DNA of 64,000 nt, taken from assembly GCA_963813065.1 (NCBI GenBank), contig CAWEXP010000006.1:55779-119778 (forward strand). The letters are read 5' to 3'. The notes beneath the pieces were generated by a model. It saw only the letters and a program-made list of their open reading frames with translations, ran no database searches and was not told the origin of the DNA. Each line of letters starts with the position of its first letter. Position 1 is the first letter of the stretch. This document shows, piece after piece, positions 32,289 to 61,200 of this stretch. This stretch comes from Candidatus Kaiserbacteria bacterium (GTDB lineage Bacteria > Patescibacteriota > Minisyncoccia > Phycocordibacterales > Phycocordibacteraceae). Both the position numbers and the translations under genes were made by a program.

Positions 32289-32290
32289 CC

Positions 32291-33632: not shown

Positions 33633-33634
33633 AG

Positions 33635-37331: not shown

Positions 37332-38632
37332 GACGTTTCAATTTCAGCACCGAGAGACTTGAGGCGCGTGACGATATCCTCATAGCCGCGGGAGATCGAG
37401 TAGACGTTGCGGAGGGTTGAGCGACCGGCGCTGCCGAGCATGGCGACGAGGATGATGGTCGCGGGGCGCAGTGCGGGCGGGCAGACGACCTCGGCCGCCT
37501 TGAGCCGCACGGGGCCGGGGATCGAGATGCGATGCGGATCGTGGAGCACGGTCTGCGCGCCGAGTCGATCGAGCTCGGTGTAATAGATCGCGCGCTTCTC
37601 GTAGACCCAGTCGTGGATAAGGGTTGTGCCCTTGGCCACGAGCGCAATGGCGGCGAAGAAGGGGAGATTGTCGATGTTGAGACCCGGATAGGGGCGGGCA
37701 TGAATTTTTTCGGGGAAGGCAGTCAGGCTCGACGGCTTCAGGTGCAGGTCGATGATCTTGGTAATGCCATTCTCTGAGACGCGTGGATTCTTGAGCGAGT
37801 ATTTCAATCCCATTTTCTCGAGAATAAAAAGTTCGGTCTCGAGGAACTCGATGGGCGCACTGCGAATGACGAGCGCTGACTTCGTCACGATGGCCGCAGA
37901 GATGAAGAACATCGCGTCGGTCGGATCTTCGGCGACGGTGTATGAAATATCTTTTTTAATCTCTCGAATGCCGCGCACCGTGAGTGTCGTCGAGCCGGTG
38001 CCCTCAATCTCGACGCCGAGCGCTTGCAAGAATCCGCAGACTTCCTGCACCTGATAATTCGCCGAGGCGTACTTGATGATGCTCGTGCCGGGAATCTTCG
38101 CGGCGGCGAAGAGGGCATTAATGGTCGCGGTGTCGCTCGATTCGTAGAGAGTCACTTCGGCCGGGTGCAGAGTCGTATGCGTAATACGGTAGCGGTCACG
38201 GAGTGCGCTGATGGCAATGCCGAACTTCTCGAGCGCGTAGAGATGCGGCCGCGCCGAACGGAGGCCCAAGGTACAACCGCCCGATTGCGGCAACTCGAAT
38301 TTTTTGAAACGGTGCACCAAGGGGCCGATGAACATCAAAATACTGCGCGTCTTGGTCGCGGCGACCTTATCAATTTTATCGAGGTTTAACCTCGATGAGG
38401 GGGCAACGATGAGGCTCGAACCGTTCCATTCCACCGAGACACCAATCGACCGCAGGACTTCGACGAGTCGGTGCACCTCCTCGATCTTCGGCACGCGCTC
38501 GAGGGTCGTGACACCATCGTTCAGTAGCGAAGCGGCGAGGAGTGCGACCGCGCCGTTCTTCGAGCGCGAGGTGATGACTTCGCCTCTCAGTTTCTTGCCG
38601 CCCTCAATCACGAAATTCATGCCGTCGGCCAT
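37328..38632 (-). CDS. murA: UDP-N-acetylglucosamine 1-carboxyvinyltransferase
   Basis: EPSP-synthase fold pattern: KLRGEVITSRSKNGAVALLAASLL..., active-site region RSARPHLYALEKFG (catalytic Cys replaced). Confidence 0.8.
   Translation of the reverse strand: MADGMNFVIEGGKKLRGEVITSRSKNGAVALLAASLLNDGVTTLERVPKIEEVHRLVEVLRSIGVSVEWNGSSLIVAPSSRLNLDKIDKVAATKTRSILMFIGPLVHRFKKFELPQSGGCTLGLRSARPHLYALEKFGIAISALRDRYRITHTTLHPAEVTLYESSDTATINALFAAAKIPGTSIIKYASANYQVQEVCGFLQALGVEIEGTGSTTLTVRGIREIKKDISYTVAEDPTDAMFFISAAIVTKSALVIRSAPIEFLETELFILEKMGLKYSLKNPRVSENGITKIIDLHLKPSSLTAFPEKIHARPYPGLNIDNLPFFAAIALVAKGTTLIHDWVYEKRAIYYTELDRLGAQTVLHDPHRISIPGPVRLKAAEVVCPPALRPATIILVAMLGSAGRSTLRNVYSISRGYEDIVTRLKSLGAEIETS
38378..38396. 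repeat. REP palindrome ATCGAGGTTTAACCTCGAT within the murA coding sequence
   Basis: 19-bp perfect palindrome identical to the core of the RAYT-flanking REPs; encodes SSRLNLDKI in frame. Confidence 0.6.
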
Positions 38633-38634
38633 AG

Positions 38635-39255
38635 TCAGGGGAGGAGATCGAAGAGGCGCTCGAGGAAGGTGCGACGCAGAGCCATCACCGTCGGCTGATC
38701 ATGCGCGTAGGTGGCGATCATGTCCTGGTGCTGTTGGGCGCGGAATGCGCGCAGAGATTCGACCGTGAACGTGCCATGCTCGGTCTCGGCCTGGCCATTG
38801 AGGAGGCGGGTGATGTGCGGCATCGACTTGTCGAGCGTTTTGATAAATCGTGCTTCTGGTGTCGTTAACGATTCGTAGGCCGCAATGGTCTCGGGTATCC
38901 AGGGCAGAGTCGCACCGAACTCGTCGCGGATGCGCACGAAGGCCGCGTGCTCGCGCCGCATTTTCTCCTCTTTGTCTTCGACCGACATCGGCTTGAGCGT
39001 ATTCGTGTCGCCCGCGTAGACCTCGACCAAGTCGTGCACGAGGGCAAATTGCGCGACTTTCCCCAGATCCAGCTCGGGCGCCTCGCGCGCGGCGAAGGCG
39101 CAGGCGATGAGTGCGAGCATGACGGTGTGATCGGTGTCGGATTCGAAGGTCTCGCCGTCTTCGTGGTAGGTGGCGCGATTCGTCCGCCCGAATTGGAGCG
39201 CCAATCGCCCGAGTCGTACGACCGCATCCGCAACTTCCTCCATTCGTTCCTGCAT
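38635..39255 (-). CDS. HD-domain phosphohydrolase (YfbR-like)
   Basis: HD motif ...SDTDHT...VHDLVEVYAGD... Confidence 0.65.
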   Translation of the reverse strand: MQERMEEVADAVVRLGRLALQFGRTNRATYHEDGETFESDTDHTVMLALIACAFAAREAPELDLGKVAQFALVHDLVEVYAGDTNTLKPMSVEDKEEKMRREHAAFVRIRDEFGATLPWIPETIAAYESLTTPEARFIKTLDKSMPHITRLLNGQAETEHGTFTVESLRAFRAQQHQDMIATYAHDQPTVMALRRTFLERLFDLLP

Positions 39256-39330
39256 AGGCGTATTGTATGCCGGTCCGCGAACTTCTCCAACGGGTATAAA
39301 AAAGCCGGCCTCGTGAAGAGGCCGGTTCTG

Positions 39331-39630
39331 TTAGAAGGTGTTGCACTGGGGAATGAGATGGCAAGTCTGGTGTGCCCAGCCCGCCAGCTGACACAGCCAG
39401 TAGTAGAGCAATTCATAGCTCATGATCGCGAGGACAGAGCCCAGCAAGGCGAAACCGAGCCATCGCGGAGTTTTCTTGTCCGAGGTGTCGTTGGGTGCGA
39501 TGTTGCAGACGAACGTGATGATCAACACCACGCAGGGTGCGAGCGCGACAAAGAAATTGTACACAACACCCAGAGTCGCGGTGGCCGCGTAGGCGATGAG
39601 TGCGAGTAGCACATAGGAAAAAGTGCGCAT
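39331..39630 (-). CDS. Small integral membrane protein
   Basis: Three predicted TM helices; no domain recognised. Confidence 0.35.
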   Translation of the reverse strand: MRTFSYVLLALIAYAATATLGVVYNFFVALAPCVVLIITFVCNIAPNDTSDKKTPRWLGFALLGSVLAIMSYELLYYWLCQLAGWAHQTCHLIPQCNTF

Positions 39631-39725
39631 GCGAGTCTCCTTCAGATCGCAGATTGTTCCGGAAATATCATACCGCATATTTAATTATTTTGCAAGTGCC
39701 ACGGGAAGCGGTATGATACGGGCAA

Positions 39726-40757
39726 ATGTCATTCTTTTCTCCCAAACTCGGTATCGATCTCGGGACGACCAACGTGCTGGTCTTCGTGCCGGGCAAGGGC
39801 GTCATCATCAATGAGCCCTCGGTCGTCGCGGTGGGGAAGAACGAGGGCCCGCGCGGCGGGAAGAATAAGATTCTGGCGATTGGCATCGAGGCCAAGAAGA
39901 TGATTGGTCGCACGCCCGACGACATCATCGCCTATCAGCCGATGAAGGACGGCGTCATCGCTGACTACCGAATCACGGAGGTGATGTTGCGCTATTTCAT
40001 CCGCAAGGCGCTCGGCCGCTGGAACCCGTTCAAGCCGACGGTGCTGGTGTCGGTGCCCGCAGGCGTCACCTCGACCGAGAAGCGCGCGGTCATCGAGGCG
40101 GCGATGAAGGCGGGCGCGAAAAACGCGTTCGTGGTCAAGGAGCCGATTCTCGCCGCGATTGGTGCGGGCATCCCCATTCACGAGCCGATGGGCCGAATGG
40201 TCGCCGATATTGGTGGCGGTACCATCGACGTCGCCGTGATCTCGCTCGGCGGCATCGTCGCCTCGACCTCGGTCAAGTGCGCAGGTAATCGCCTCGACCG
40301 CGCGATTGTCGATTATATTAAGAAACAGCACAACCTCTCGATTGGCGACAAGACCGCCGAAGAAGTGAAAATAAAAATTGGCGCCGCAGTGCCGATTAAC
40401 GAAGAGCTCGCTCTGCCGATCAAAGGCCGCGACCTGGTCTCTGGCCTGCCGCGCACCATCGAACTCTCGACCAATGAAGTCGCGGGCGCGATGGCGCGTG
40501 AGCTCCGCGAGATGACGCAAGCAATCCGTAAGGTCTTGCAGGAGACGCCGCCCGAGCTCGCTTCGGACATTATCGACAATGGCATCATCCTCACCGGCGG
40601 CTCGAGCCAGCTCCGCCAGATGACCGAGCTCGTGTATCGCCGCACGGGCGTCGTCGCCAAGCTCGCGACCGATCCCTACTACTGCGTCGCGCGCGGCACT
40701 GGCATCGCGCTGAAACATTTGCATACGTATCAGAAAAGTATTTTAGCGAAGCAATAA
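39726..40757 (+). CDS. mreB: Rod shape-determining protein MreB (actin-like), copy 1
   Basis: LGIDLGTTNVLVFV phosphate-1 motif and MreB-wide similarity. Confidence 0.85.
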   Translation: MSFFSPKLGIDLGTTNVLVFVPGKGVIINEPSVVAVGKNEGPRGGKNKILAIGIEAKKMIGRTPDDIIAYQPMKDGVIADYRITEVMLRYFIRKALGRWNPFKPTVLVSVPAGVTSTEKRAVIEAAMKAGAKNAFVVKEPILAAIGAGIPIHEPMGRMVADIGGGTIDVAVISLGGIVASTSVKCAGNRLDRAIVDYIKKQHNLSIGDKTAEEVKIKIGAAVPINEELALPIKGRDLVSGLPRTIELSTNEVAGAMARELREMTQAIRKVLQETPPELASDIIDNGIILTGGSSQLRQMTELVYRRTGVVAKLATDPYYCVARGTGIALKHLHTYQKSILAKQ

Positions 40758-40801
40758 CGCATCGTTACAAAAGAAAACCCGCGGCGAGTACGCCGCGGGG
40801 A

Positions 40802-41227
40802 CTAGAAAGGAATCTTGATACCAATCACGAGTGCGCTCGTGTGGCCCAGCTTGTTCTCGCCGATGAGTGGCTCGAATTGCACACCACTCACGACCCAGCG
40901 ATACGTCAGCGCATCGTAGAAGGCGTGGAACCGGCCGCTCTCAAAAGAAAGTAGAAGGTCGCGTTCGATCGGCATGCCACTCAAGTACGCATACTTTTTC
41001 TCGAGCGTACCGATGCGCCACGGCTTCTTCGCATCATAGGCCGGTGTTGACGGTTCTTGCCACGGACGATCGCGGAATTCCTTCCACGAGGGCGGCGGAA
41101 TCACGAGGTTTATCTTGTTTAAGTCAGACTTGAACAGAGTAGCGCTATGCGCACACTCGGTCGACATCGCCAGTGCGGCAATCAAGATTACAAAAAACAA
41201 AAGAGCGAGACTCAACCAGCGCTTCAT
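40802..41227 (-). CDS. Secreted hypothetical protein
   Basis: Signal-like MKRWLSLALLFFVILIAALA. Confidence 0.4.
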   Translation of the reverse strand: MKRWLSLALLFFVILIAALAMSTECAHSATLFKSDLNKINLVIPPPSWKEFRDRPWQEPSTPAYDAKKPWRIGTLEKKYAYLSGMPIERDLLLSFESGRFHAFYDALTYRWVVSGVQFEPLIGENKLGHTSALVIGIKIPF

Positions 41228-41319
41228 CGGCGCCTCCTGGAACGTTTCTGCGCGAAAGTGTAGCACGGTATAAAAAGGGCGCCCGGTGAGGGGCGCCCAA
41301 GATTTTCGCACCAACTGTT

Positions 41320-42162
41320 TTAGCCGAAGATGTGCCCAAGAGCATACGAGAACTTGAGCATCCACACATCATCGAGATGATGTTTGAAGTACAGAGCCTG
41401 TCCGGTAACGTTTATCGTGAACCAATCCGTCGGATGATAGGTGAGTCCGCCCATGCCGATGGTCGAGTTCGAGCTGTTGCCCGTGAGGCTCACCGCCTGT
41501 GCCACTAAGAGATTGGCATCGACGCTGTCGGACCTGCCGAAAAGGCGATTGAGTGCCTTGAAGTCTGCCGACACGCCGAGACTGCTGGTGACGTAGGTAT
41601 CGTATTCGTTGATGCCTTCGAAGGCCTCAACTTTACCGGTGATACCGAAGGTCACCTTCCCATCCTTGAACGGACGTGTCGCGGCGAAGGACTGATAGAG
41701 TCCATCGTCTTTCAACGTCGCAAGGAAGTCTCGATCGTGGAAAGAAAGAAACCAATACGAGGCGGTTGCTTCGTAGTCGATCGGCCCGACGAAGGTCGAT
41801 GTTGAGCCGTCGCCGCCGATCGTCACGTCTGCTTCCTTGGCAGTTTCGAGATCGTTGCGGTGGTTACGGAACGAGTTCCACCAATCGCCCCAGACGTTAT
41901 CGAACAAGGGAGCGAACCAGGACGGATGGTCCCAATTCAGTGTGAACCCAGCGTTCGTTGTCGGTCCACGGGACGCCTGCATGCCGAAGTACGCGGCGAT
42001 GTATTTCGTCCGCTCACCGCCGTAGACGCTTACATCGGGCCCAGAGTCGACGGTAGTTACCATTGGATCTGTGCCGAGGCCCGCAATCGCAAACGACGGG
42101 GTCGTCGCCAATGCCAGCGCGAAGCCAGCAAGCATAATGGAAGTGAAAAGACCGTTGCGCAT
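41320..42162 (-). CDS. Secreted hypothetical protein (beta-rich; ends ...GHIFG)
   Basis: Signal peptide MRNGLFTSIMLAGFALALATTPSFA; alternating hydrophobic pattern. Confidence 0.4.
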   Translation of the reverse strand: MRNGLFTSIMLAGFALALATTPSFAIAGLGTDPMVTTVDSGPDVSVYGGERTKYIAAYFGMQASRGPTTNAGFTLNWDHPSWFAPLFDNVWGDWWNSFRNHRNDLETAKEADVTIGGDGSTSTFVGPIDYEATASYWFLSFHDRDFLATLKDDGLYQSFAATRPFKDGKVTFGITGKVEAFEGINEYDTYVTSSLGVSADFKALNRLFGRSDSVDANLLVAQAVSLTGNSSNSTIGMGGLTYHPTDWFTINVTGQALYFKHHLDDVWMLKFSYALGHIFG

Positions 42163-42289
42163 GTGAATCCTCCAGATTCTGCCGGCAGAGTGCCAGCGTG
42201 AGCGCAATTCAACTGCACATATTATATACACAATTGACAACGTTTGTCAATCTCCGTAAAACAGCGTAGCTAGGCGCTATACTCACTCA

Positions 42290-43030
42290 ATGCACCACGC
42301 TTTTTTCATCGAGGCGGAAGCGGAAGCGGGAACGGCACTCGCGCTCGAGAGTATCGAGCGCGAGTTGGGGATGAAGGCGGCGGGGAATCCAGACGTCGTC
42401 GTTTTGAAATATGGATTGCTCTCGGTTGAGGATACGCGACGAATTATTGAAATAGCTTCAACGAAAGCATTTGGGAAGGCTAAAACTTCCTCTGAAGGAC
42501 GTTCGCCCGACGCTTCGGGAGAAGCGTCTAGGGCGATTGTTATCGCGGCGAGTCGCGCGTATCACGAGGCGCAGAACGCACTCCTGAAAATATTCGAGGA
42601 GCCCGCGCCCGGCACACACCTATTTCTCATTCTCCCCTCAGCGGGGATGCTCTTGCCGACGCTGAAATCTCGAATGCAAATTGTGGACACGCCGTGTCCT
42701 AAATCAGATTTAGGACACGCCGTGTCCAACTTGCCGGAAGCGGCGCAAAAGTTCCTCGCGGCGACGAGCGAGAAGCGCACGGCAATTGCGAAGAAGCTCG
42801 CAACGGGCGATGACGAAGACGATCGACGTGCCAATCGTGACGAGGCGCTCGCGATTGTGAATGGCATTGAGCTCGCGGCATACCGCGCATCGAAGAAACA
42901 GCCGGACCCAGCACTCTTCGCGCTCCTCTCCGACCTCGCAATCCTGCGCACGTATCTCCACGAACGCTCGGCGCCGGTCCGTATGATTCTCGAGCACGTC
43001 GCGCTCGTGATTCCAAAAAGCTTGAAATGA
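42290..43030 (+). CDS. holB: DNA polymerase III delta' subunit
   Basis: AAA+ clamp-loader pattern ALLKIFEEPAPGTHLFLI...LPTLKSRMQ. Confidence 0.65.
   Translation: MHHAFFIEAEAEAGTALALESIERELGMKAAGNPDVVVLKYGLLSVEDTRRIIEIASTKAFGKAKTSSEGRSPDASGEASRAIVIAASRAYHEAQNALLKIFEEPAPGTHLFLILPSAGMLLPTLKSRMQIVDTPCPKSDLGHAVSNLPEAAQKFLAATSEKRTAIAKKLATGDDEDDRRANRDEALAIVNGIELAAYRASKKQPDPALFALLSDLAILRTYLHERSAPVRMILEHVALVIPKSLK
42685..42727. repeat. 43-bp perfect palindrome inside holB (GGACACGCCGTGTCC-TAAATCAGATTTA-GGACACGCCGTGTCC)
   Basis: Two copies of a 15-bp self-palindrome flank a 13-bp palindromic spacer; read in frame as DTPCPKSDLGHAVSN. Shares the CCTAAA(T)CAG core with the miaA element. Confidence 0.65.
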
Positions 43031-49705: not shown

Positions 49706-49947
49706 TTCGCCCGGCGCTCATCGTCCTCGCGCTCGTCGCCGTCATCTGTACGCCCTGGCCTTTCGCATTCGTGCTAGCCATTGTTGCGGCATTCGCGTCA
49801 CCTCTGGCACCGCTCGCGGTCGGCATCTTTGCTGATACGCTCTATTATGCACACGGCGTGCCTTGGGCAACCGTGCTCGGCCTCTTCGTGACACTCGCGG
49901 CTTTCGGCGTGCACGCGCTCCTCGAGACGCGTATCATGCGTGCATGA
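49702..49947 (+). CDS. mreD: MreD-like small membrane protein
   Basis: Hydrophobic 80-90 aa ORF between mreC and pbp2; overlapping stops/starts. Confidence 0.45.
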   Translation: MIRPALIVLALVAVICTPWPFAFVLAIVAAFASPLAPLAVGIFADTLYYAHGVPWATVLGLFVTLAAFGVHALLETRIMRA

Positions 49948-51614
49948 AGTTTCGTCGCCGTCATACTCCCGATCCCGAGATTGCGCCTGATGAGATTTTT
50001 CTCGACGCAGTCAATTCGCCCGACTTCGATCGCTCCCGTTTCGAAGGACGCATCGAGCGACCACTCGGCTCCTCAACCTTCGCCTTTATCGGCGGTGTAC
50101 TGATATTGTTTTTTCTTATTCTCCTTGCGGGCGCCTACCGACTCCAAGTGACCGATGGCGTGGTCTATGCACTCCAGAGCGCTCACAATTCGCTCGACTC
50201 GACAACCATTTTCGCCGAGCGCGGCGTCATCAGTGATTCGCGCGGCGTGCCGCTGGTGACCAATGCTTCGACGCCCGAAGGTTTCGTCAAGCGCGTCTAC
50301 ACGACCTTGCCCGGCTTCGGCGCCTTGCTCGGCTACGTTTCGTATCCAAAAAAAGATTCAAGTGGAAATTATTACGATACCGATCTAAAAGGACTTGCGG
50401 GCCTCGAGTCTTCTGAAAATGACACGCTCTCCGGTACCGACGGCACCATGCTCGTCGAGAAGAATGTGCTCGGCACGGTCGTCTCTTCGGGCACGGTTAT
50501 TCCGGCGAAGGATGGCACCTCGCTCACCCTCTCGATCGATTCGCGCGCGCAGGTGGCACTCTATGATGCGATTTCCCAGCTCTCCGATCGCGTGCCTTTT
50601 TCCGGTGGCGCGGGTGTCTTGATGGATGTGCACACCGGCGAACTCCGCGCGCTCGTTTCCTATCCCTCGTACGATTCAACGGTGATGTCCTCGGGCGGTC
50701 CAAGCGATGTCATTCTTGGCTACGCGAACGATCCGCGTCGCGTCTATCTCGATCGCGCGGTACAGGGACTCTATACGCCCGGCTCGGTGGTGAAACCGAT
50801 CGAAGCGTCGGGAGCGCTCACCGATGGCACCATCGATCCCAACTACACGATTAACGATACCGGTTCGATTTCAGTCCCGAATCCGTACGACGCATCGCAC
50901 CCCAATATTTTCGTTGACTGGAAGGCGATTGGTACCGAGGATTTGCGGCGCGCCATCGCGTTTTCCTCGGACGTCTATTTCTACATCGTCGGCGGCGGGT
51001 ATGGTTCGCAGAAAGGTCTCGGCATTGATCGTTTGAAATATTGGTATGACACGTTCGGCTTCGAGAGTCCGACCAATATCCAATTGCCTGGCGAACGTAC
51101 CGGCTTCGTGCCGACACCCGCGTGGAAGCTCGCGACCTATGGCCAAGCCTGGAACATTGGCGATACCTACCACACCGCCATCGGTCAGTATGCCGTGCAG
51201 ATTACGCCGCTTGAAGAAGCGCGCGCCATCTCGGCAATCGCAAACGGCGGCACGCTCGTTCAACCAACGCTCCTCGAAGGTAGTGGAATCAAGTCATCGC
51301 CACTCCCTGTTAATCCTGCCGATCTCGAGATTGTGCGCGAGGGCATGCGCGAGGGCGTGCTCGAGGGCACATCGATTGGTCTCTCTGACATGTCGTTCGC
51401 CCAGTTGGCGGGGAAGACGGGCACCGCGCAGACCGGTTCGCACAATCAGTTCTACAATGGTTGGGCCGTCGGCTTCTGGCCCTACACCAATCCGAAATAC
51501 GTGTACGTCGTGGTGATGGAACATGGGCCGTCGGGCAATTCGCTCGGCGGCATCTACGCCGTGCATCAATTTCTTGAAGAGCTCCATTCAGCGGCACCCG
51601 ATTACTTCCAATAA
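49944..51614 (+). CDS. mrdA: Penicillin-binding protein 2 (elongasome transpeptidase)
   Basis: N-terminal TM, SxxK (GSVVKP), SSD, KTGTAQ; operon mreBCD-pbp2. Confidence 0.8.
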   Translation: MKFRRRHTPDPEIAPDEIFLDAVNSPDFDRSRFEGRIERPLGSSTFAFIGGVLILFFLILLAGAYRLQVTDGVVYALQSAHNSLDSTTIFAERGVISDSRGVPLVTNASTPEGFVKRVYTTLPGFGALLGYVSYPKKDSSGNYYDTDLKGLAGLESSENDTLSGTDGTMLVEKNVLGTVVSSGTVIPAKDGTSLTLSIDSRAQVALYDAISQLSDRVPFSGGAGVLMDVHTGELRALVSYPSYDSTVMSSGGPSDVILGYANDPRRVYLDRAVQGLYTPGSVVKPIEASGALTDGTIDPNYTINDTGSISVPNPYDASHPNIFVDWKAIGTEDLRRAIAFSSDVYFYIVGGGYGSQKGLGIDRLKYWYDTFGFESPTNIQLPGERTGFVPTPAWKLATYGQAWNIGDTYHTAIGQYAVQITPLEEARAISAIANGGTLVQPTLLEGSGIKSSPLPVNPADLEIVREGMREGVLEGTSIGLSDMSFAQLAGKTGTAQTGSHNQFYNGWAVGFWPYTNPKYVYVVVMEHGPSGNSLGGIYAVHQFLEELHSAAPDYFQ

Positions 51615-51671
51615 AAGCGAGTAGTGTATAACCCGCACGCACATCCCATAGGCTTTGCTATAGTAGTACGT

Positions 51672-53342
51672 ATGCGTATCCGTGCGTTGTCCGCGACCTC
51701 GTTCGCCCTTGGCGTTCTCCTTTTCCTTCCACTCGCGGCTCACGCGTATGTAACGCCGGGTACAACACTCGACCCGGGTTGTGCGCCAAGCGACCCTGCC
51801 TGCGCCGTCGCGACGAGCACCATCGCCGCTGGTACCGCGGGACAGGTCGCCTACTACTCGGTCAACGGACAGGCACTCTCGGGCATCGCTCTCTCATCAT
51901 TAAATGTTTCTAGTTTCAATAATGATGCCGGCTATGTGAATGCCGCTGGCGCCCGCTCAGCGCTGAGTGGGCAAAACATTTCGATGTTCAACAACGACGC
52001 CAACTACATCACCGCCAGTGTTAGCTCGCTCACGAGTCTTGGTACTATCTCGAGTTCACTCTCGGGCGTCTTGAGTGCAACGGCCGGCGCGCTCTCGGCG
52101 GGGCTCGTCAACCTCGCGTCGCAAGTGAGCGGCATCCTGCCAGTCGGCAATGGTGGCACCGGCGTTTCCGCCATCGCCGCTGGCGCGATTCCTTTTGGCA
52201 ACGGTTCGGGCGCGATTGCGACCAGCACCGCACTTTTCTTCGACAGTACCAACGGGCGTCTCGGTATCGGCACGACTTCACCGACGGCACCCCTCGAGAT
52301 TTATGGTTCCAACTCATCGACCAATTTGGCCACAGGCGGCGGCGTCTTCGCAGCTCTCACCAACGCCGACCAGACCGATGGAAATTTTGATTCGATTTCC
52401 TATCGCGAGATAAATAGTGCGGGTGCCGAGGTGACCGGCACCCGCATTTCTGGCGTGTTCAATTCTCACACCGCCGGAACCGAGTCCGCAGATCTCGCCC
52501 TGCTCACGCGCAACAACGGCTCTCTGAGCGAGAAGGTGCGCATCACGGGCGCGGGCACGGTCGGCGTCGGCAGTTCGACCCCTTTCGCCAAGCTCTCGGT
52601 GCAGGCGAATAGCACCGACACCAATGCCTATCTTTTTGCCATCGGCTCTTCGACCGCCAGTGCGACCACCACACTTTTCGCTGTTTCCAATAGCGGTGTC
52701 GCCACCTTCAGCGGTCCGGGTGGCACGTGTGTTATCGATGGTTCGGGCAATTGCACCTCTGACCAGAGGTTGAAGACCAATATCGCGCCGATCAGCGGCA
52801 CCGACGCACTCGCGAAACTCTCTTTGATACAGGGCGTCACCTACAACTGGCTCGACCCCTCACTGACCCAGAGTCAGCAAGTCGGTGTCATCGCACAGAA
52901 TGTATTGAAAGCGTTTCCACAGCTCGTGGGCACGGTGCAGACCTCGCTCGATGGGGTCGCCGGTACCTACTACACGGTCAATTACGCGGGCCTCGTCGCG
53001 CCGCTTATCTCGGCGGTAAATAGTTTTGCACAATCGATTACAACCGCGGTATTGAACGCCACCACCATCCACACCGATACGCTCTGCGTCGGCACCACGT
53101 GTGTCAATCAATCCCAGCTCCAGCAACTTTTGCAAGCCAACGGTGTGTCGGCGATACAGCAGGATGTGATTGCACCATCCGTGGATAGTGGGGCGGGGGA
53201 TTCGGTCGCGACCAGCACCGACAACTCAGACTCGTCGCAATCCGCCGCAACCACAACGCCGACCGACGACTCTACTGTCTCTGCCACAGATTCGAGTACT
53301 GCATCGCAAACTGACGACAGCGCGACCACCACCCCCGAATAG
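51672..53342 (+). CDS. Secreted tail-fibre-like protein with C-terminal S74-type intramolecular chaperone motif and Ser/Thr/Asp-rich tail
   Basis: Signal peptide MRIRALSATSFALGVLLFLPLAAHA. Gly-rich repeat region. GNCTSDQRLKTNIAPISGTDALAKLSLIQGVTYNW matches the SD.R.K.NI...V.Y.W motif of phage tail-spike chaperone domains. Confidence 0.5.
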   Translation: MRIRALSATSFALGVLLFLPLAAHAYVTPGTTLDPGCAPSDPACAVATSTIAAGTAGQVAYYSVNGQALSGIALSSLNVSSFNNDAGYVNAAGARSALSGQNISMFNNDANYITASVSSLTSLGTISSSLSGVLSATAGALSAGLVNLASQVSGILPVGNGGTGVSAIAAGAIPFGNGSGAIATSTALFFDSTNGRLGIGTTSPTAPLEIYGSNSSTNLATGGGVFAALTNADQTDGNFDSISYREINSAGAEVTGTRISGVFNSHTAGTESADLALLTRNNGSLSEKVRITGAGTVGVGSSTPFAKLSVQANSTDTNAYLFAIGSSTASATTTLFAVSNSGVATFSGPGGTCVIDGSGNCTSDQRLKTNIAPISGTDALAKLSLIQGVTYNWLDPSLTQSQQVGVIAQNVLKAFPQLVGTVQTSLDGVAGTYYTVNYAGLVAPLISAVNSFAQSITTAVLNATTIHTDTLCVGTTCVNQSQLQQLLQANGVSAIQQDVIAPSVDSGAGDSVATSTDNSDSSQSAATTTPTDDSTVSATDSSTASQTDDSATTTPE

Positions 53343-53343
53343 T

Positions 53344-53736
53344 ATGAGCGTTGTATTTTCATTCACCCGCCGATTCTTCTGGCCGATTCTGATTTTCGTC
53401 GTGCTGATTTTGTTATGCATCGCCTACGGGGCTGGGCGTGCGAGCGTGTATCAGGCGAACCCAGGTCTCGCGCAGGCTGAACAGGCGAACTCAATCCTCG
53501 CGCACGTCGGCAAGTTTATGCAATTGCCCTCTGAGACGCCAACAATGGCGACCATTAAGGACGCCGCGAGTGCGAAGGCGGCGCAACCATTCCTCGTGAA
53601 TGCCGAAAATGGCGACGTGCTCATTGTGTTCCAGCAGGCGGCCGAAGCCATTCTTTATCGCCCCTCAACTGATAAAATAATCTCGGTCGGCCCCGTGAGC
53701 CCCATCAATGTCCAAAATGCAGGAACAAATAAATAG
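53344..53736 (+). CDS. Membrane-anchored hypothetical protein
   Basis: N-terminal TM FWPILIFVVLILLCIAYGAG; start directly after the previous stop. Confidence 0.4.
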   Translation: MSVVFSFTRRFFWPILIFVVLILLCIAYGAGRASVYQANPGLAQAEQANSILAHVGKFMQLPSETPTMATIKDAASAKAAQPFLVNAENGDVLIVFQQAAEAILYRPSTDKIISVGPVSPINVQNAGTNK

Positions 53737-54655
53737 CAGTCGCCCACCTAGGCCAAGTCTTACTAACTTTTTCTGGCCCGTCGCTCTGGGACTTTTCGTT
53801 CTCGCACCACTTGTGGCGTATGCAGGCACTATCTCGAGCTCGCACCAGTACGCATGGAGCAACGACGCGGGCTGGGTCAACTTCGCGCCGTCACAGTCGA
53901 CGGTGACCGTTTCCGACTCTGGATTGAGCGGCTACGCATGGAGCCAGAATGATGGCTGGATCAACCTCTCGCCCTCGCAGAGTGGCGTGACGAATAGTAA
54001 TGGCACACTTGGTGGCTTCGCGTGGGATCCGCTCGCAGGCTGGGTCAATTTCTCGGGCGTGACGATAGACTCAAGCGGCAAGTTCCATGGCGAGGCAAAC
54101 GGTAGTAACAGTTACGCAATCAACTTCGACTGTGCGAATTGCGATGTCGAGACTGATTGGCGCTTGACCACCACAAACACCAATACCAACACGACCTCCT
54201 CGTCTCCCGGTTCGATTTCGCCCATCTTCATCTCTGCACCGCTCGCGGCGGTCACGCAGGCCGTGAGTTGGGTGAGTTCACTTTTCAATACTCTGCCCAT
54301 TGGCGATTTGCCGCCAGGTGACCAGCCGCCCGTGACCCATACCAAAACTCCTGCGGCTGTTGTGCTCGCGCAACCCACTCCTCCAACACCAACGCCCGTT
54401 GTAACGCCGGCTCCGCCAGTCACTCCGCCGAGCGCCAATGTCGCCACGACTTCGGTGCCAACTATTTTCCAGCCCATCGCCACCTCAACCTCTGCGACGA
54501 CCACGCCGGAAGTCACGGTCGCAACCGCAACACCGGTCGCCCTCGTTCCGTCGGCGCCAACAACCTCTTTCTTTTCAATACTTGCGCCCTACGCAATCCC
54601 GATCGGCGCTGGCGCTGGTGCGCTGATTCTGCTCGGCATCGCGCTCCTTCTCTAG
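53708..54655 (+). CDS. Secreted repeat protein with Pro/Thr-rich linker and C-terminal TM anchor
   Basis: Three GYAWSxNDGW(I/V)NF-type repeats; PT-rich region; C-terminal LAPYAIPIGAGAGALILLGIALLL. Confidence 0.45.
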   Translation: MSKMQEQINSSRPPRPSLTNFFWPVALGLFVLAPLVAYAGTISSSHQYAWSNDAGWVNFAPSQSTVTVSDSGLSGYAWSQNDGWINLSPSQSGVTNSNGTLGGFAWDPLAGWVNFSGVTIDSSGKFHGEANGSNSYAINFDCANCDVETDWRLTTTNTNTNTTSSSPGSISPIFISAPLAAVTQAVSWVSSLFNTLPIGDLPPGDQPPVTHTKTPAAVVLAQPTPPTPTPVVTPAPPVTPPSANVATTSVPTIFQPIATSTSATTTPEVTVATATPVALVPSAPTTSFFSILAPYAIPIGAGAGALILLGIALLL

Positions 54656-54712
54656 ACTCTCCCCAGTTGCGCTCCTGGCGTACTCGCGTACAATTGCGAG
54701 ACTCACATCTAT

Positions 54713-55189
54713 ATGGCTGATAACGAAAAAGAGACATTATTGTCCCAAGAAAAATTCGATGAGGTCGTGAAAGAACTTCACGAGCTGAAGACCGTGCGTC
54801 GCACCGAGATCGCCAAGAATCTCGAGTACGCGCGTTCGCTCGGCGACCTCTCAGAGAATGCCGAATATCAGGAAGCGCGCGACCTCCAGGCGGCCACCGA
54901 GGAGCGCATCCGCAAACTCGAAGACCTCGTCCGCCACGCCAAGATTCTCACCGACGGCAAGAAGAAAGATATCGTCGGATTCAATTCGAAAGTGTCAATC
55001 AAACGCGCTGGGGCAGAGGAGGCGCACGAATACACCATCGTCGGGAGCGAGGAAGCCGACATGCGCGTGAAGAAGCTCTCGCACGTTTCTCCGCTCGGCG
55101 CGGCCCTCATGGGCAAGAAGAAGGGCGATACCTTCACCTTCGAGACGCCCTCGGGCAAGCAGACCTACACCATCGAGAAAGTTGCCTAA
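54713..55189 (+). CDS. greA: Transcription elongation factor GreA
   Basis: GreA N-terminal coiled coil and C-terminal FKBP-like domain (GDLSENAEYQEARD...). Confidence 0.85.
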   Translation: MADNEKETLLSQEKFDEVVKELHELKTVRRTEIAKNLEYARSLGDLSENAEYQEARDLQAATEERIRKLEDLVRHAKILTDGKKKDIVGFNSKVSIKRAGAEEAHEYTIVGSEEADMRVKKLSHVSPLGAALMGKKKGDTFTFETPSGKQTYTIEKVA

Positions 55190-56973: not shown

Positions 56974-56994
56974 TATCGAGGTTTAACCTCGATA
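56974..56994. repeat. REP palindrome TATCGAGGTTTAACCTCGATA (RAYT 3' flank)
   Basis: 21-bp perfect palindrome overlapping the RAYT stop. Confidence 0.7.
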
Positions 56995-57657
56995 TTCTTG
57001 ATAGTATTCATGCGCGTCAGTAATCATTTCCTCAAGAGAGGGGAGTTCCTCGTAGAGTTCAAAAACCGTCATGCCAAGGAGATGTTTTTCTAGTCGTTGC
57101 AACTTCAGAAAGTCTGGAAGACTCGAGTATCGGTACCGGATGAGTTCGTTTTTAATCTGCGATACGTTTCCGTCGCCATTTTTCCATGCAGAATCAAAGA
57201 GTTTTGCAGGATTCAGATGGACATAGGCAACCAACCGCTTAAGATACAGATCATCGTCGACAATCTTCGATTTAAACGTTCCCGCAAACAATGCGCCCGT
57301 TCGTTCATATTTAGTATTAAAGTACATCGTGTAGCCCGTACAAAGTTTTTGCATGAAGCGCGCAATGCCTCCCTTGTCTATCTCTTTAAGTACCAGATGA
57401 AAGTGGTTTGGCATCAAACAATATGCACCGATTTCTACAATGGCGTTTCCACGGTCAAAACTCGAATCAAGAATTACATCCGCCAATCTTTTGTTTTTAA
57501 GATTAGAGGTCTGTACTGGTTTTTCGCCACCGCTCGTAAAGAGGGCGAGCAGAAAACGTTCATAATCTGCAGAATCTTGATACACCAGCCGTTTATCTAC
57601 CCCACGGTTGTAGCAGTGATACCACTCATCAATTCCAAATGCCGGTCGCGTAGGCAT
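56983..57657 (-). CDS. REP-associated tyrosine transposase (IS200/IS605-like HUH Y1 transposase)
   Basis: HUH motif HFHLVL, conserved Tyr region (AYVHLNPAK), ~220 aa; flanked on both sides by the same REP palindrome. Confidence 0.7.
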   Translation of the reverse strand: MPTRPAFGIDEWYHCYNRGVDKRLVYQDSADYERFLLALFTSGGEKPVQTSNLKNKRLADVILDSSFDRGNAIVEIGAYCLMPNHFHLVLKEIDKGGIARFMQKLCTGYTMYFNTKYERTGALFAGTFKSKIVDDDLYLKRLVAYVHLNPAKLFDSAWKNGDGNVSQIKNELIRYRYSSLPDFLKLQRLEKHLLGMTVFELYEELPSLEEMITDAHEYYQEYRG

Positions 57658-59465: not shown

Positions 59466-61200
59466 ATGAGAGGGCAATTCCGTTTCCGCATCCGCATCGT
59501 ACTCTTTGCGGTTGTATTCATCGCACTGCTGATTGTCGTGCGACTCTACTTCGTCCAAGTGGTCGATGGCGCGAACTACTCTTTGAAGGCCGATCACCAA
59601 TTCGCCTCGGGCGGGAGCGGACTCTTCGATCGCGGTTCGATTTATTTCACCACTAAGAACGGTACACTGGTCTCCGCCGCGACTCTGGAGACCGGTTTCC
59701 TCGTCGCGCTCAATCCACAGACCATACAAGACCCTGAGGCGGCCTATGCGGCAGTTTCGGCGTCTGCGTCGACGTCGATCTCGCATGATGCCTTTATCGC
59801 GGCCGCCGCGAAGAAGAACCAAGTGTATATCGAGGTCGCGCATCACCTCTCGGACGCCGCAGGCAAGGCGCTCGTCGCGCGGAACATCCCGGGCCTCGAT
59901 GTCTTGCGGGAGCGCTGGCGCGTCTATCCGGGTGGTGACTTGGCCGCGAACGCCGTCGGCATCGTCTCGTACGGCTCGGGCGATGACCTCACCGGTCAGA
60001 CCGGTCTCGAGTCGGAGTACGACACCGCGCTCGCACGTTCGGGTGATGCGCTCTACAAGAATTTCTTTGCTCAGCTCTTCTCGAATGTGGGCGACGTACT
60101 CATTGATGCACGGAGTGCGCGCGAGGGCGATGTGGTGACTACCGTCGAGCCCGAGGTTGAGACACGACTCGCGCAGGATCTCGCGCAAGTGAATCAAAAA
60201 TATTCGAGCAAGGAGTCCGGCGGTATCATCATGGATCCAGCCACGGGCGCCCTCATCGCGCTCGCGACCTATCCGACCTATGATCCAAATGATTTGACGA
60301 GCGTACCGCCCGCACTCCTCGGCGATCCGCTCGTCGAGCATGTGTACGAGTTTGGTTCGATTATGAAATCGCTCACGATGGCCTCCGGGCTCGATGCAGG
60401 CGTCATCACGCCCGCGACGACCTATAACGATACGGGCTGTATCCACGTCGACTCGGCGACGATTTGTAACTACGACTTGAAGGCGCGCGGCGTGATCCCC
60501 ATGCAACAAATTCTCTCGCAGTCCTTAAATGTCGGTGCATCGTGGATCGCGACGCAACTCGGGCAGAGCGCATTCCGTTCGTACTTCACGGCACTCTTCG
60601 GGCAGAAGACGGGCATCGATCTGCCTTCAGAAACCAGCGCCCTGCTCGGCAACCTTTCCAAGCCGCAACAAGTCGCCTTCGACACGGCCTCCTTCGGCCA
60701 GGGGATTGCGGTCTCGCCCGTGCAGATGATCCGTGCGCTCGGCGCCTTGGCGAATAATGGCTCGATGGTCCGGCCACATGTAGTGAGCGCCATCCAGCTC
60801 GACAATGGCGTGACGCGCACGCTCGACTGGAGCGGCGAGACACCCGTCTTCTCGCCCACCGCCGTGCGCGAGGACACCACCATGCTCACCAGCGTGGCTG
60901 ACGTATTCTCTCGCCAATGGCAAAGACCGCATTCCGACCACCAGCTTCGCGGCCAAGACCGGCACCGCCCAATTGACCAATGGCCAGGGTGGCTATTACA
61001 AGGATCGCTACTTCCACTCCTTCTTTGGGTACTTCCCCTCGTACGCGCCGAGGTTTATTATCCTGCTCTACACCAACGATCCGCAGGGTGTCGAATATGC
61101 TTCTGAAACGCTTACCTCGACCTTCATGGACTTGACCCACTTCCTCATCGACTATTATCAGATACCGCCTGACCGCTCGGCCACAACGACAACCCCATGA
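59466..61200 (+). CDS. ftsI: Penicillin-binding protein FtsI/PBP3-like transpeptidase, with one apparent frameshift near the C-terminus
   Basis: N-terminal TM, SxxK (GSIMKS), SxN, KTGTAQ found in the +1 frame (ORF 60973-61200). Frame break ~60895-60915. Confidence 0.75.

What the first reader, a model, noticed from the sequence alone, without database searches (positions are those of the whole stretch)
51672..53342. Secreted tail-fibre-like protein with an S74-type intramolecular chaperone motif
The C-terminal region GNCTSDQRLKTNIAPISGTDALAKLSLIQGVTYNW closely matches the conserved core of the self-cleaving chaperone domain found at the C-termini of phage tail spikes/fibres and endosialidases. 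Upstream are a signal peptide and Gly-rich repeats, and downstream a Ser/Thr/Asp-rich tail. It is encoded in a chromosomal context (after pbp2), not in a prophage, so it may be a domesticated fibre used for attachment to a host cell.
Basis: partly seen in the sequence, partly recalled or inferred. Interest (0 to 1): 0.55.

Follow-up and report, generated by a model that had tools for sequence, protein, structure and literature searches.

The report
Secreted S74 fibre with envelope-anchored partners
An ultrasmall (Patescibacteria) bacterium encodes a secreted, probably self-cleaving, phage-tail-fibre-like protein next to two conserved envelope-anchored partner genes, which makes the trio a testable candidate for how these bacteria bind other cells.

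Summary
ORF 51672-53342 (556 aa) has a Sec-type signal peptide and a Peptidase_S74 domain (E 6.7e-16). The SDxxxK Ser363/Lys368 dyad is intact. A Ser/Thr/Asp-rich tail follows. The gene lies between pbp2 and greA in a Patescibacteria chromosome, not in a prophage.

It is not an isolated domesticated phage gene. It belongs to a lineage-specific fibre family with this layout:
- signal peptide;
- a conserved N-terminal module (PGxTLDPxCxPxDxxC);
- a mosaic beta-rich stalk;
- S74;
- a conserved Cys-hairpin extension;
- an acidic Ser/Thr tail.

The stalk is homologous to the Bdellovibrio "mosaic adhesive trimer" (MAT) fibres (profile E 4e-16 to Bd2133). Phages share only the S74 core, at 30-40% identity.

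The two downstream genes recur beside N-module fibres in many loci with otherwise unrelated flanks. One is a small membrane protein. The other is a "GWxNF"-repeat protein with no fold match in the two structure libraries available.

A sibling fibre with the same N-module carries a tip hypermutated by a diversity-generating retroelement, next to the same partner pair.

Best reading: a surface adhesin fibre matured by S74 and docked through its N-module. Cleavage, trimerisation, docking and the ligand are inferred, not shown. I class it as a new variant of a known kind, interest about 0.6.

The parts
51657..51665 (+). Possible extended -10 element TGCTATAGT, 6 nt before the ATG. It would imply a leaderless or very short-leader transcript.
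   Evidence: Read directly from the sequence. The consensus promoter scan found no sigma-70 site in 51300-55000, so this is weak and unverified.
51672..53342 (+). Fibre gene, 556 aa, secreted S74 pro-fibre.
   Evidence: ORF. The exact protein is in public collections. PF13884 hit.
51672..51746 (+). Sec-type signal peptide, aa 1-25: MRIRALSATSFALGVLLFLPLAAHA|Y.
   Evidence: Hydrophobic 19-mers at aa 3-29. A-x-A followed by Y/F-x-P-G is conserved at the same place in family members. No signal-peptide predictor was available.
51747..51890 (+). N-module, aa 26-73: YVTPGTTLDPGCAPSDPACAV...QVAYYSVNG, with Cys37 and Cys44. Proposed cell-proximal docking module.
   Evidence: The regex P[GS]x[TN][LTV][DNST]PxCxPx[DGNS]xxC is found directly after the signal peptide in 37 family proteins. 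An exhaustive phmmer search finds about 27 cluster representatives with it at their N-terminus. It is absent from 80 viral S74 loci. AF2 confidence is below 50 here.
51891..52031 (+). Two copies of the N(V/I)SxFNNDA(G/N)Y stalk motif (region aa 74-120).
   Evidence: Sequence. The same motif occurs as a roughly 24-aa tandem repeat, up to 25 copies, in large unrelated proteins such as P0240.
52032..52316 (+). Collar, aa 121-215: LxATAGALSAGLVNLASQVSGILPVGNGGTG...FDSTNGRLGIGTTSP.
   Evidence: 50-73% identical blocks occur in many hits, with or without S74.
52317..52757 (+). Beta-rich distal body, aa 216-362, ending in the Cys353-x7-Cys361 loop. It includes the GTVGVGSSTPFAKLSV motif. Presumed fibre tip once S74 has been removed.
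   Evidence: AF2 gives strands at 258-356 with pLDDT about 75-89. Foldseek matches Bd3182, Bd1334 and Bd2133 fibres at E 1.7e-4 to 1e-3. The family profile hits Bd2133 at 3.9e-16 and Bd3182 at 8e-9.
52758..52775 (+). Catalytic motif SDQRLK (Ser363...Lys368). Predicted self-cleavage between Thr362 and Ser363.
   Evidence: Cleavage itself was not tested.
52758..53024 (+). S74 intramolecular chaperone / autoprotease domain, aa 363-451.
   Evidence: PF13884 at aa 363-419. pLDDT above 90 at aa 371-450. Foldseek to the MyRF ICA domain 7DC3 gives E 1.1e-5, rmsd 2.3 A over 114 columns, and also matches 3GW6.
53025..53144 (+). Conserved post-S74 extension, aa 452-491: FAQSITTAVLNATT..T..LC(472)VGTTC(477)VNQSQLQQLLQANG.
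   Evidence: C130, C135, Q140 and L141 are invariant in the 12-sequence alignment A2. AF2 predicts a hairpin at 470-479 plus a helix at 480-489, pLDDT 82-86. Classical S74 proteins end 90-135 aa after the Ser, whereas this family continues for 180-300 aa. The extension is absent from all 80 viral loci by motif.
53145..53339 (+). Ser/Thr/Asp-rich low-complexity tail, aa 492-556.
   Evidence: Composition. pLDDT below 50. Equivalent acidic or S/T/P-rich tails are seen in family members.
53344..53736 (+). Partner gene 1: 130-aa protein with an N-terminal membrane helix and a conserved domain of about 80 aa. It starts 1 nt after the fibre stop codon.
   Evidence: Hydrophobic segment at aa 3-36. 20 invariant columns across 7 loci. 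It recurs next to N-module fibres. No Pfam or NCBIfam hit.
53708..54655 (+). Partner gene 2: 315-aa GWxNF-repeat protein. It has a signal peptide, a beta domain at aa 40-150 with three GYAWSxNDGW(I/V)NF-type repeats and INFDCxxCDV, a Pro/Thr-rich stalk, and a C-terminal membrane helix at aa 289-315. It overlaps partner gene 1 by 29 nt.
   Evidence: AF2 pLDDT is 94-97 over aa 41-150. There is no significant match in PDB (best E 0.2) or BFVD (best E 0.6). No Pfam hit.

Best explanation
The gene encodes the pro-form of a secreted, trimeric, phage-tail-fibre-like surface fibre of a Patescibacterium. It is a lineage-specific relative of the Bdellovibrio MAT adhesin fibres.

Proposed mechanism:
1. 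The protein is exported by Sec and its signal peptide is removed after Ala25.
2. Outside the membrane, the C-terminal S74 domain drives trimerisation and folding of the beta-rich stalk.
3. The Ser363/Lys368 dyad cuts the chain between Thr362 and Ser363. This releases a 194-aa fragment (chaperone, Cys-hairpin extension and acidic tail) and leaves a mature fibre of about 337 aa (aa 26-362).
4. The conserved disulfide-looped N-module holds the fibre on the cell. It does so by binding the products of the two co-transcribed downstream genes: the small membrane protein and the GWxNF-repeat protein, which sits on a Pro/Thr-rich stalk.
5. The distal end exposed by S74 removal binds a ligand on another cell, either a host or prey.

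Shown here:
- the domain architecture;
- the intact dyad;
- fold and sequence homology to S74 domains and to MAT stalks;
- the chromosomal, non-phage context;
- the conserved gene linkage;
- a sibling fibre on the same scaffold with a DGR-diversified tip.

Inferred, not shown: trimerisation, cleavage, docking to the partners, surface location and the ligand.
For: S74 domain:
- PF13884 E 6.7e-16.
- Ser363 and Lys368 are at least 90% conserved.
- Ser363 aligns with residue 1 of the released 3GUD chaperone.
- AF2 pLDDT exceeds 90, and Foldseek matches MyRF ICA (E 1.1e-5, rmsd 2.3 A) and 3GW6.

Homology to MAT stalks:
- Foldseek hits Bd3182, Bd1334, Bd2133 and Bd2439.
- The family profile hits Bd2133 at 3.9e-16, Bd3182 at 8e-9, Bd1334 at 2e-7 and Bd2439 at 5e-6.
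- MAT fibres are surface-located adhesins. For Bd3182, S74 self-cleavage was shown experimentally and an S782A mutant blocks it (PMC10769870).

Not phage:
- Neighbours are housekeeping genes.
- Phage similarity is limited to aa 340-471 at 30-40% identity.
- None of 80 IMG/VR S74 loci has the N-module, the extension or the partner genes.

Coherent family:
- 24 of 27 N-module proteins longer than 500 aa combine S74, the Cys-hairpin extension and an acidic S/T tail.
- Middle domains vary: GDSL lipase, LVIVD, pectate-lyase-like, PG-binding.

Cassette:
- Gene spacing in the window is tight: a 1-nt gap and a 29-nt overlap.
- The GWxNF gene is adjacent and co-directional with a fibre gene in 8 further loci: L003/L004, L005, L007, L019, L020, L023, L048 and L080. 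The small membrane protein gene is also present in three of them, L003/L004, L005 and L080.
- Two further N-module fibres also have the pair adjacent.
- N-module versus GWxNF adjacency: 5 of 8 loci against 3 of 74, Fisher p = 1e-4.
- There is only one GWxNF gene in the 64-kb window.
- GWxNF proteins are envelope-anchored in two different ways: a C-terminal membrane helix here and PG_binding_1 domains in L169, P0194, P0205 and P0210.

Tip as ligand binder:
- The sibling P0036 has the same N-module and stalk but an FGE/C-lectin-like C-terminus in place of S74.
- That C-terminus is the variable region of a bona fide DGR: Avd and a reverse transcriptase are present, the template and variable repeats are 88% identical, and every mismatch falls at a template adenine.
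- The same partner pair lies downstream.
Against: - No experiment or multimer model was possible. Trimerisation, cleavage and docking are untested.
- AF2 gives no confident structure for aa 1-143, the region proposed to dock.
- The cassette linkage is not universal. Three N-module fibre loci (L002, L006, L013) have no GWxNF gene within the flank.
- Adjacency would equally fit assembly or secretion helpers rather than a dock.
- The protein has no recognisable ligand-binding or enzymatic domain.
- The conserved post-S74 extension and tail have no explained role in this model.
- The sample of loci is small and was selected through S74 sequence patterns.
Confidence: 0.6

Rival explanations
1. A released (not cell-bound) secreted fibre or enzyme scaffold. 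S74 matures a soluble trimer that diffuses away and acts on host envelopes or polymers. The neighbouring genes would be export or assembly helpers rather than a dock.
For: The mature fibre has no membrane or cell-wall anchor of its own. Family members carry GDSL lipase/esterase and pectate-lyase-like domains in the middle. Roux et al. note that CPR DGR targets lack recognisable membrane domains (PMC8144416).
Against: The window protein has no enzymatic domain. The most conserved part outside S74 is an N-terminal module whose presence correlates with adjacent envelope-anchored proteins. Homologous MAT fibres are located on the surface (PMC10769870).
Confidence: 0.17
2. A structural envelope fibre (S-layer or cell-wall associated) linked to cell shape and wall growth, not to binding other cells.
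For: The gene sits directly after mreB-mreC-mreD-pbp2 and among murA, a second PBP and a Mur ligase. Fibre genes also lie next to mreB in L166 and near hisS-mreB-mreC-pbp2 in L015. Some GWxNF partners carry peptidoglycan-binding domains.
Against: Flanking genes differ widely between loci: tyrS/trpS, ftsH/recG, LemA/GGDEF, integrase, relaxase. Mosaic tips and a DGR-hypermutated tip indicate variable ligand recognition, which a structural protein would not be expected to need.
Confidence: 0.13
3. A remnant phage or prophage tail fibre (or tailocin fibre) left in the chromosome with no cellular role.
For: S74 is best known from phage tailspikes and fibres. PHROG tail-fibre families hit aa 328-458.
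Against: No phage genes lie within about 10 kb on either side. Virion proteins are not expected to carry a Sec signal peptide (general knowledge, not tested here). Phage similarity is restricted to the S74 core at 30-40% identity. The intact ORF belongs to a conserved multi-copy cellular family with non-phage partner genes. None of 80 viral loci shares the family-specific modules.
Confidence: 0.03

Closest known systems
Bdellovibrio bacteriovorus MAT (mosaic adhesive trimer) fibres, S74 subgroup, e.g. Bd3182 (Caulton et al., Nat Microbiol 2024, PMC10769870; PDB 8ONC, 8OJN, 8OND, 8OML)
   Same: - A chromosomal, signal-peptide-bearing, phage-fibre-like protein of a bacterium that lives on other cells.
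- A conserved module directly after the signal peptide.
- A beta-helical stalk with GNVGIGTxxPxxKLxV-type loops. Sequence homology is supported at profile level (E 3.9e-16 to Bd2133) and the fold matches.
- A C-terminal S74 domain with SDxxxK.
- A family that splits into S74 and non-S74 tips, including an FGE-type tip.
   Different: - It is much shorter, 556 aa against about 1,000 aa.
- The host is presumed to have a single-membrane envelope, as is generally assumed for Patescibacteria; this was not tested here.
- I could not test whether the N-module is homologous to the MAT N-domain.
- S74 is followed by a conserved Cys-hairpin extension and an acidic S/T tail.
- It has conserved adjacent partner genes (the small membrane protein and the GWxNF protein), which the parts of the MAT paper I searched do not mention.
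- No Patescibacteria appear in that paper's survey table.
Phage S74 intramolecular chaperone domains: K1F endosialidase endoNF (3GW6), phi29 gp12 (3GUD), T5 pb1 (4UW8)
   Same: PF13884 match, the Ser-Lys dyad, the position of the scissile bond and the fold of the chaperone core.
   Different: The gene is not in a virion gene cluster. The protein is Sec-secreted. Identity is only 30-40% and confined to aa 340-471. About 100 extra residues follow the chaperone core.
Myelin regulatory factor (MyRF) ICA domain (7DC3)
   Same: It is the best structural match to the S74 part: E 1.1e-5, rmsd 2.3 A over 114 columns. It is a precedent for S74 use outside viruses, with sequence following the domain.
   Different: In MyRF the segment after the domain is a membrane anchor, and cleavage frees a transcription factor. 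Here the downstream segment is hydrophilic and the released product is extracellular.
DGR target proteins with C-type-lectin variable tips (Bordetella phage BPP-1 Mtd; CPR clade-2 DGR targets, Roux et al. 2021, PMC8144416)
   Same: The sibling fibre P0036 shares the N-module and stalk, and its tip is the DGR variable region.
   Different: The window protein has no DGR, no template repeat and no C-lectin tip. The link is by shared scaffold and shared partner genes only.

Membership tests
Peptidase_S74 / C-terminal intramolecular chaperone domain (CIMCD, ICA) | Significant match to the family profile PF13884 | tested here: met
   E 6.7e-16, 58.8 bits against a cut-off of 22, aa 363-419, profile positions 1-57 of 58.
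Peptidase_S74 / C-terminal intramolecular chaperone domain (CIMCD, ICA) | Catalytic Ser-Lys dyad in S-D-x-x-x-K at the start of the domain | tested here: met
   S363-D-Q-R-L-K368. Both residues are at least 90% conserved in 45 sequences. Ser363 aligns with residue 1 of the released 3GUD chain.
Peptidase_S74 / C-terminal intramolecular chaperone domain (CIMCD, ICA) | Chaperone-domain fold | tested here: met
   In the monomer AF2 model, pLDDT exceeds 90 for aa 371-450. Foldseek matches 7DC3 at E 1.1e-5 (rmsd 2.3 A over 114 columns) and 3GW6 at E 1.5e-3.
Peptidase_S74 / C-terminal intramolecular chaperone domain (CIMCD, ICA) | Domain lies at the extreme C-terminus, directly after a trimeric beta-helix or fibre | tested here: inconclusive
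   The upstream beta-rich body matches fibre beta-helices. However, about 105 further residues follow the chaperone core: a conserved extension and a tail. The trimeric state could not be modelled.
Peptidase_S74 / C-terminal intramolecular chaperone domain (CIMCD, ICA) | Trimerisation-dependent autoproteolysis | not testable with these tools
   This needs expression of the wild type against S363A/K368A mutants, or proteomics.
MAT (mosaic adhesive trimer) fibre superfamily | N-terminal signal peptide | tested here: met
   By inspection and hydropathy. It is conserved in homologues.
MAT (mosaic adhesive trimer) fibre superfamily | Conserved beta-rich domain of about 130 aa directly after the signal peptide, homologous among members | not tested
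   A conserved N-module exists in the Patescibacterial family. No Bdellovibrio N-terminal sequences or structures were available to compare. AF2 confidence is low in this region.
MAT (mosaic adhesive trimer) fibre superfamily | Beta-helical stalk with capping-loop motif, homologous to solved MAT stalks | tested here: met
   The family profile hits Bd2133 at 3.9e-16, Bd3182 at 8e-9, Bd1334 at 2e-7 and Bd2439 at 5e-6. GNVGIGATAPTAKLEV of Bd2133 lines up with the family's stalk-motif consensus GnVGIGtTSPaakLsv, the motif the window protein carries as GTVGVGSSTPFAKLSV. Foldseek gives E 1.7e-4 to 1e-3.
MAT (mosaic adhesive trimer) fibre superfamily | Interchangeable tips: S74 or non-S74 on a common scaffold | tested here: met
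   Of the N-module proteins, about 24 end in S74 and 3 end in an FGE/C-lectin-like tip. PF03781 on P0036 scores 19.9 bits, below its cut-off of 23.3.
MAT (mosaic adhesive trimer) fibre superfamily | Surface location and a role in handling another cell | not testable with these tools
   Inference only.
Prophage or phage tail fibre | Encoded among phage structural or lysis genes | tested here: not met
   The neighbours are hisS, mreBCD, pbp2, greA and lysS. The nearest mobile gene is an IS200-like transposase 3.6 kb downstream.
Prophage or phage tail fibre | Full-length similarity to phage fibre proteins | tested here: not met
   Only aa 340-471 match, at 30-40% identity, in 30 of 50,697 phage records. 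PHROG hits are confined to aa 237-470.

The most novel reading that the evidence does not exclude
Patescibacteria possess a dedicated three-component surface-fibre system.
- Secreted trimeric fibres carry interchangeable tips: S74-matured beta-helices, enzyme-bearing stalks or DGR-hypermutated lectin tips.
- All share one disulfide-looped N-module.
- That module plugs into a membrane- or peptidoglycan-anchored GWxNF-repeat protein that matches no fold in the structure libraries searched, together with a small membrane protein.

This would be a main host-recognition apparatus of these episymbionts. It would also explain why CPR DGR targets appear to lack any membrane anchor.
Probability: 0.35. 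Interest if true: 0.78.

Novelty: new variant of a known kind. Interest (0 to 1): 0.6.

Why it matters
How ultrasmall Patescibacteria find and hold their hosts is largely unknown. So far type IV pili and a few adhesins are implicated (abstract of PMC12206443; PMC10633639).

This locus provides a concrete candidate. It is a fibre family homologous to the prey-recognition fibres of Bdellovibrio, with a conserved anchoring module and two conserved envelope-anchored partner proteins. One of the partners has a confidently predicted fold with no match in the PDB or BFVD libraries.

The same scaffold and partner genes accompany a DGR-hypermutated fibre tip. This offers an answer to the open question of how the apparently anchorless DGR targets of CPR bacteria are displayed (PMC8144416).

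Homologues, with a GWxNF gene 1 kb upstream on the same strand, occur in Saccharibacteria (L020). Members of that group can be cultivated and genetically manipulated, so the idea can be tested.

Tried and rejected
- A single-sequence search against PDB sequences found nothing at E<=1. The C-terminal fragment alone gave only a marginal 3GUD hit at E 0.94. The profile search was needed.
- NCBIfam gave no hit for any of the three cassette proteins.
A 4-sequence alignment, A3, worked.
- The window's own genome is not among the species representatives scanned; the best match was 49% identical.
- Literature searches found nothing on S74 or intramolecular chaperones together with Patescibacteria or CPR.
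- In the exhaustive N-module search, the top hits P0239 and P0258 are compositional T/P/A-rich repeat artefacts. About 40 further hits match only the FNNDAGY motif. Neither group was counted as N-module proteins.
- The sigma-70 consensus scan found no promoter. The terminator-like hits inside the genes are not above background in any convincing way.
- The prophage reading was considered and rejected (see rivals).
- The idea that the post-S74 extension is unique to Patescibacteria was rejected. It also occurs in a few MAGs labelled Alphaproteobacteria or Proteobacteria: L009, L014 and L026.
Full report
**1. The observation.** The ORF runs from ATG 51672 to the stop at 53342 on the + strand and encodes 556 aa. 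The identical protein is on record in NCBI, ENA and Logan on a 124.7-kb contig.
- Pfam PF13884 (Peptidase_S74, "chaperone of endosialidase") matches aa 363-419 with E 6.7e-16 and 58.8 bits, against a cut-off of 22.
- The domain opens with S363-D-Q-R-L-K368, which is the S+5 Ser-Lys dyad spacing.
- In a 45-sequence family alignment, S363 and K368 are among only six columns conserved at 90% or more.
- Ser363 aligns with residue 1 of PDB 3GUD, whose chain begins SDERHKTDIAPIS.
- The N-terminus (MRIR, hydrophobic core, AHA|Y) looks like a Sec signal peptide.
- The last 55 residues are 65% Ser, Thr or Asp.
- The "Gly-rich repeats" are better described as two FNNDA(G/N)Y motifs and two G-x-x-G-(I/V)-G-(T/S)-(T/S)-x-P-x-A-x-L motifs.

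**2. Organism and context.** Upstream lie hisS, mreB, mreC, mreD and a PBP2-type transpeptidase. Downstream lie greA and lysS. Further out are murA, a second mreB, holB, another PBP and a Mur ligase. No phage genes are present. Named LysS homologues at 69-75% identity all come from Paceibacterota, Minisyncoccia, Parcubacteria or the Patescibacteria group, apart from two records titled only 'bacterium'. The organism is therefore a Patescibacterium.

**3. Structure and homology.** A monomer AF2 model has mean pLDDT 63.
- It is confident for the S74 core (aa 371-450, above 90).
- It is fair for a beta-rich body (aa 271-360, about 72-89) and for a hairpin plus helix after S74 (aa 470-489, 82-86).
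- It is unreliable for aa 1-143 and for the tail.

Foldseek against the PDB matches the S74 part to the MyRF ICA domain (7DC3, E 1.1e-5, rmsd 2.3 A) and to endoNF (3GW6). It matches the body to the Bdellovibrio fibres Bd3182, Bd1334, Bd2133 and Bd2439.

A profile built from the family hits several solved proteins by sequence:

| Target | E-value |
|---|---|
| Phage tail fibre 8JOV | 2.8e-16 |
| Bd2133 | 3.9e-16 |
| MyRF | 4e-12 |
| Bd3182 | 8e-9 |
| Bd1334 | 2e-7 |
| Bd2439 | 5e-6 |

These Bdellovibrio proteins are the MAT (mosaic adhesive trimer) fibres of Caulton et al. 2024. They carry a signal peptide, a conserved N-terminal domain, a trimeric beta-helix and either S74 or other tips. They sit on the predator surface, and S74 self-cleavage was shown experimentally for Bd3182. 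That paper's survey of MATs in other organisms lists predators and Omnitrophica but no Patescibacteria.

**4. Relation to phages.** tblastn against 50,697 phage records finds only aa 340-471, at 30-40% identity. In IMG/VR, 275 stretches encode S74 relatives. In the 80 best loci the match is nearly always confined to the chaperone core. None of those loci carries the family's N-module motif, the Cys-hairpin extension or either partner gene. "Domesticated phage fibre" is therefore true only in the remote sense in which all cellular S74 proteins share ancestry with phage ones.

**5. The family.** The closest homologues come from Kaiserbacteria, Adlerbacteria, Nomurabacteria, Saccharibacteria, Minisyncoccia and others, often with several copies per genome. 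They share one architecture:
- a signal peptide;
- an N-module, (Y/F)xPGxTL(D/N)PxCxPxDxxC;
- a mosaic stalk built from reusable blocks, sometimes with GDSL lipase, LVIVD, pectate-lyase-like or DUF5011 domains;
- S74;
- a conserved extension, FAQSxTT...LC(V/I)GxTC(V/I)xxxQL;
- an acidic or Ser/Thr/Pro-rich tail.

Classical S74 proteins stop 90-135 aa after the catalytic Ser. These continue for 180-300 aa. An exhaustive phmmer search with the N-module against 1.84 billion representatives finds about 27 clusters with it at the N-terminus, so the family is small. Of the N-module proteins longer than 500 aa, about 24 of 27 end in S74 plus the extension plus the tail. Three end instead in an FGE/C-lectin-like domain. 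The window protein is the shortest complete member seen.

**6. The conserved cassette.** In the window the fibre stop codon is followed after 1 nt by a 130-aa protein with an N-terminal membrane helix. That gene overlaps by 29 nt a 315-aa protein with this layout: a signal peptide, three GYAWSxNDGW(I/V)NF-type repeats, an INFDCxxCDV motif, a Pro/Thr-rich stalk and a C-terminal membrane helix.
- The GWxNF gene recurs directly beside, and co-directional with, a fibre gene in 8 further loci: L003/L004, L005, L007, L019, L020, L023, L048 and L080. Their other flanks differ. The small membrane protein gene accompanies it in L003/L004, L005 and L080.
All four have a PF13884 protein immediately upstream, and three of them have the small ORF in between.
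- Two more N-module fibres looked up afterwards (L169, L170) also have the pair adjacent.
- Among loci not chosen through GWxNF, adjacency tracks the N-module: 5 of 8 against 3 of 74, Fisher p = 1e-4. With L169 and L170 included it is 7 of 10.
- The window has a single GWxNF gene in 64 kb, so the linkage is not a density effect.
- GWxNF is a rare family, 116 clusters among 5.8 billion, with no Pfam model.
- Its repeat domain is predicted with pLDDT 94-97. It has no significant Foldseek match in the PDB (best E 0.2) or among viral models (best E 0.6).
- Some members replace the C-terminal membrane helix with peptidoglycan-binding domains. These are two different ways of fixing the same domain to the envelope.

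**7. The DGR sibling.** P0036 from a Kaiserbacterium has the N-module and stalk but no S74. Its gene is followed by bAvd and a reverse transcriptase. A 116-nt repeat links the 3' end of the fibre gene to the avd-RT spacer at 88% identity, and every mismatch sits at an adenine of the spacer copy. That is the signature of a diversity-generating retroelement. The same small membrane protein (E 2e-52) and GWxNF protein (E 2e-74) follow. Two things follow from this. The partner pair goes with the N-module scaffold, not with S74. The C-terminal end of the scaffold is where variable ligand binding takes place. Roux et al. 2021 noted that CPR DGR targets lack recognisable membrane domains and left open whether they are membrane-bound. 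A separate docking pair would explain that.

**8. Mechanism.** The steps I think most likely are:
1. Sec export and removal of the signal peptide.
2. S74-driven trimerisation of the stalk.
3. Ser363/Lys368 self-cleavage before Ser363, releasing a 194-aa fragment.
4. Retention of the mature fibre (aa 26-362) on the cell through its N-module, bound to the GWxNF protein and/or the small membrane protein.
5. Binding of a ligand on another cell by the distal beta-helix that cleavage exposes.

The architecture, homology and gene linkage are shown. Steps 2-5 are inferred from the biochemistry of S74 domains and MAT fibres and from gene neighbourhood. The conserved extension and the acidic tail on the released fragment remain unexplained.

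**9. Rivals.** Three alternatives were weighed:
- a diffusible secreted fibre or enzyme scaffold, with the neighbours acting as helpers (0.17);
- an envelope structural fibre tied to wall growth, suggested by the mreBCD-pbp2 neighbourhood but contradicted by the variable flanks and the hypermutated tips (0.13);
- a phage remnant (0.03).

**10. Verdict.** The S74 call is right, and on its own it is ordinary. NCBI already names such proteins "tail fiber domain-containing". The added value lies in four points: homology to MAT adhesin fibres, the lineage-specific N-module and post-S74 extension, a conserved partner pair that includes a protein matching no fold in the libraries available, and the link to DGR-diversified fibres. 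I class it as a new variant of a known kind, with interest about 0.6.

Noticed in passing
L169:1325-8836 (Kaiserbacteria GCA_026396715.1, contig JAPLWH010000026.1): A complete diversity-generating retroelement whose target is a fibre with the same N-module. The variable repeat is at 3940-4055, bAvd at 4220-4594, the template repeat at 4605-4720 and the RT at 4911-5945. All template/variable mismatches fall at template adenines. A small membrane protein and a GWxNF protein with two PG_binding_1 domains follow.
   Followed up: yes
window 34241-34363 (-): A LOOT RNA (Rfam RF03000) scores 84 bits against a gathering score of 46.4. It lies about 130 nt from tRNA-Asn (34493-34566, -) at the edge of the low-GC island.
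   Followed up: no
window 26000-34000: A low-GC island (0.41-0.49 against about 0.57 elsewhere) holds a type III restriction-modification pair: an N6_N4 methylase (26908-29418) and a ResIII helicase with a TnsA-like endonuclease end (29423-32152). It was probably acquired horizontally.
   Followed up: partly
window 37328-43030 compared with L166: murA(-), a second mreB (39726-40757) and holB (42290-43030) form a backbone also seen in L166. There the fibre-GWxNF pair sits directly after mreB. In the window the cassette sits about 10 kb away, after pbp2. The cassette seems to have moved within a conserved backbone.
   Followed up: partly
L168:2019-11944 (JGI 3300056821, 40.6-kb contig): A complete cassette (fibre, small protein, GWxNF) lies directly after a phage-type integrase, on a contig that also encodes a TonB-dependent receptor. 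That suggests a diderm genome. Possible explanations are horizontal transfer, a mobile element or a chimeric assembly.
   Followed up: no
L170:1-12000 (1.09-Mb contig, ENA ERZ25039551): Here the order is small protein, GWxNF, then fibre. The cassette is flanked by a TrwB-like coupling protein, a Replic_Relax relaxase and a signal peptidase, which suggests a conjugative-element neighbourhood.
   Followed up: no
L023:4212-6435, and L009, L016, L026 (MAGs labelled Alphaproteobacteria): A GWxNF protein sits directly upstream of a short S74 fibre in L023. The post-S74 Cys-hairpin extension also occurs in fibres of L009 and L026, while in L016 the match merely extends into that region. Neither feature is therefore strictly confined to Patescibacteria.
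   Followed up: partly
window 51891-52031; P0240 and about 40 other proteins: The short motif (N/D)VSAFNNDAGYIT is a tandem repeat of about 24 aa, up to 25 copies, in large proteins of 1,000-2,000 aa that are otherwise unrelated to this family. The window protein has two copies.
   Followed up: partly
window 56983-57657 (-): An IS200-like Y1 transposase (PF01797, E 4.6e-7) lies just after lysS, 2.3 kb downstream of the cassette.
   Followed up: no
window 49863-51614 and 59466-61106: Two PBP2-type transpeptidases and two mreB genes occur within 25 kb. This is unexpected for a reduced genome.
   Followed up: no
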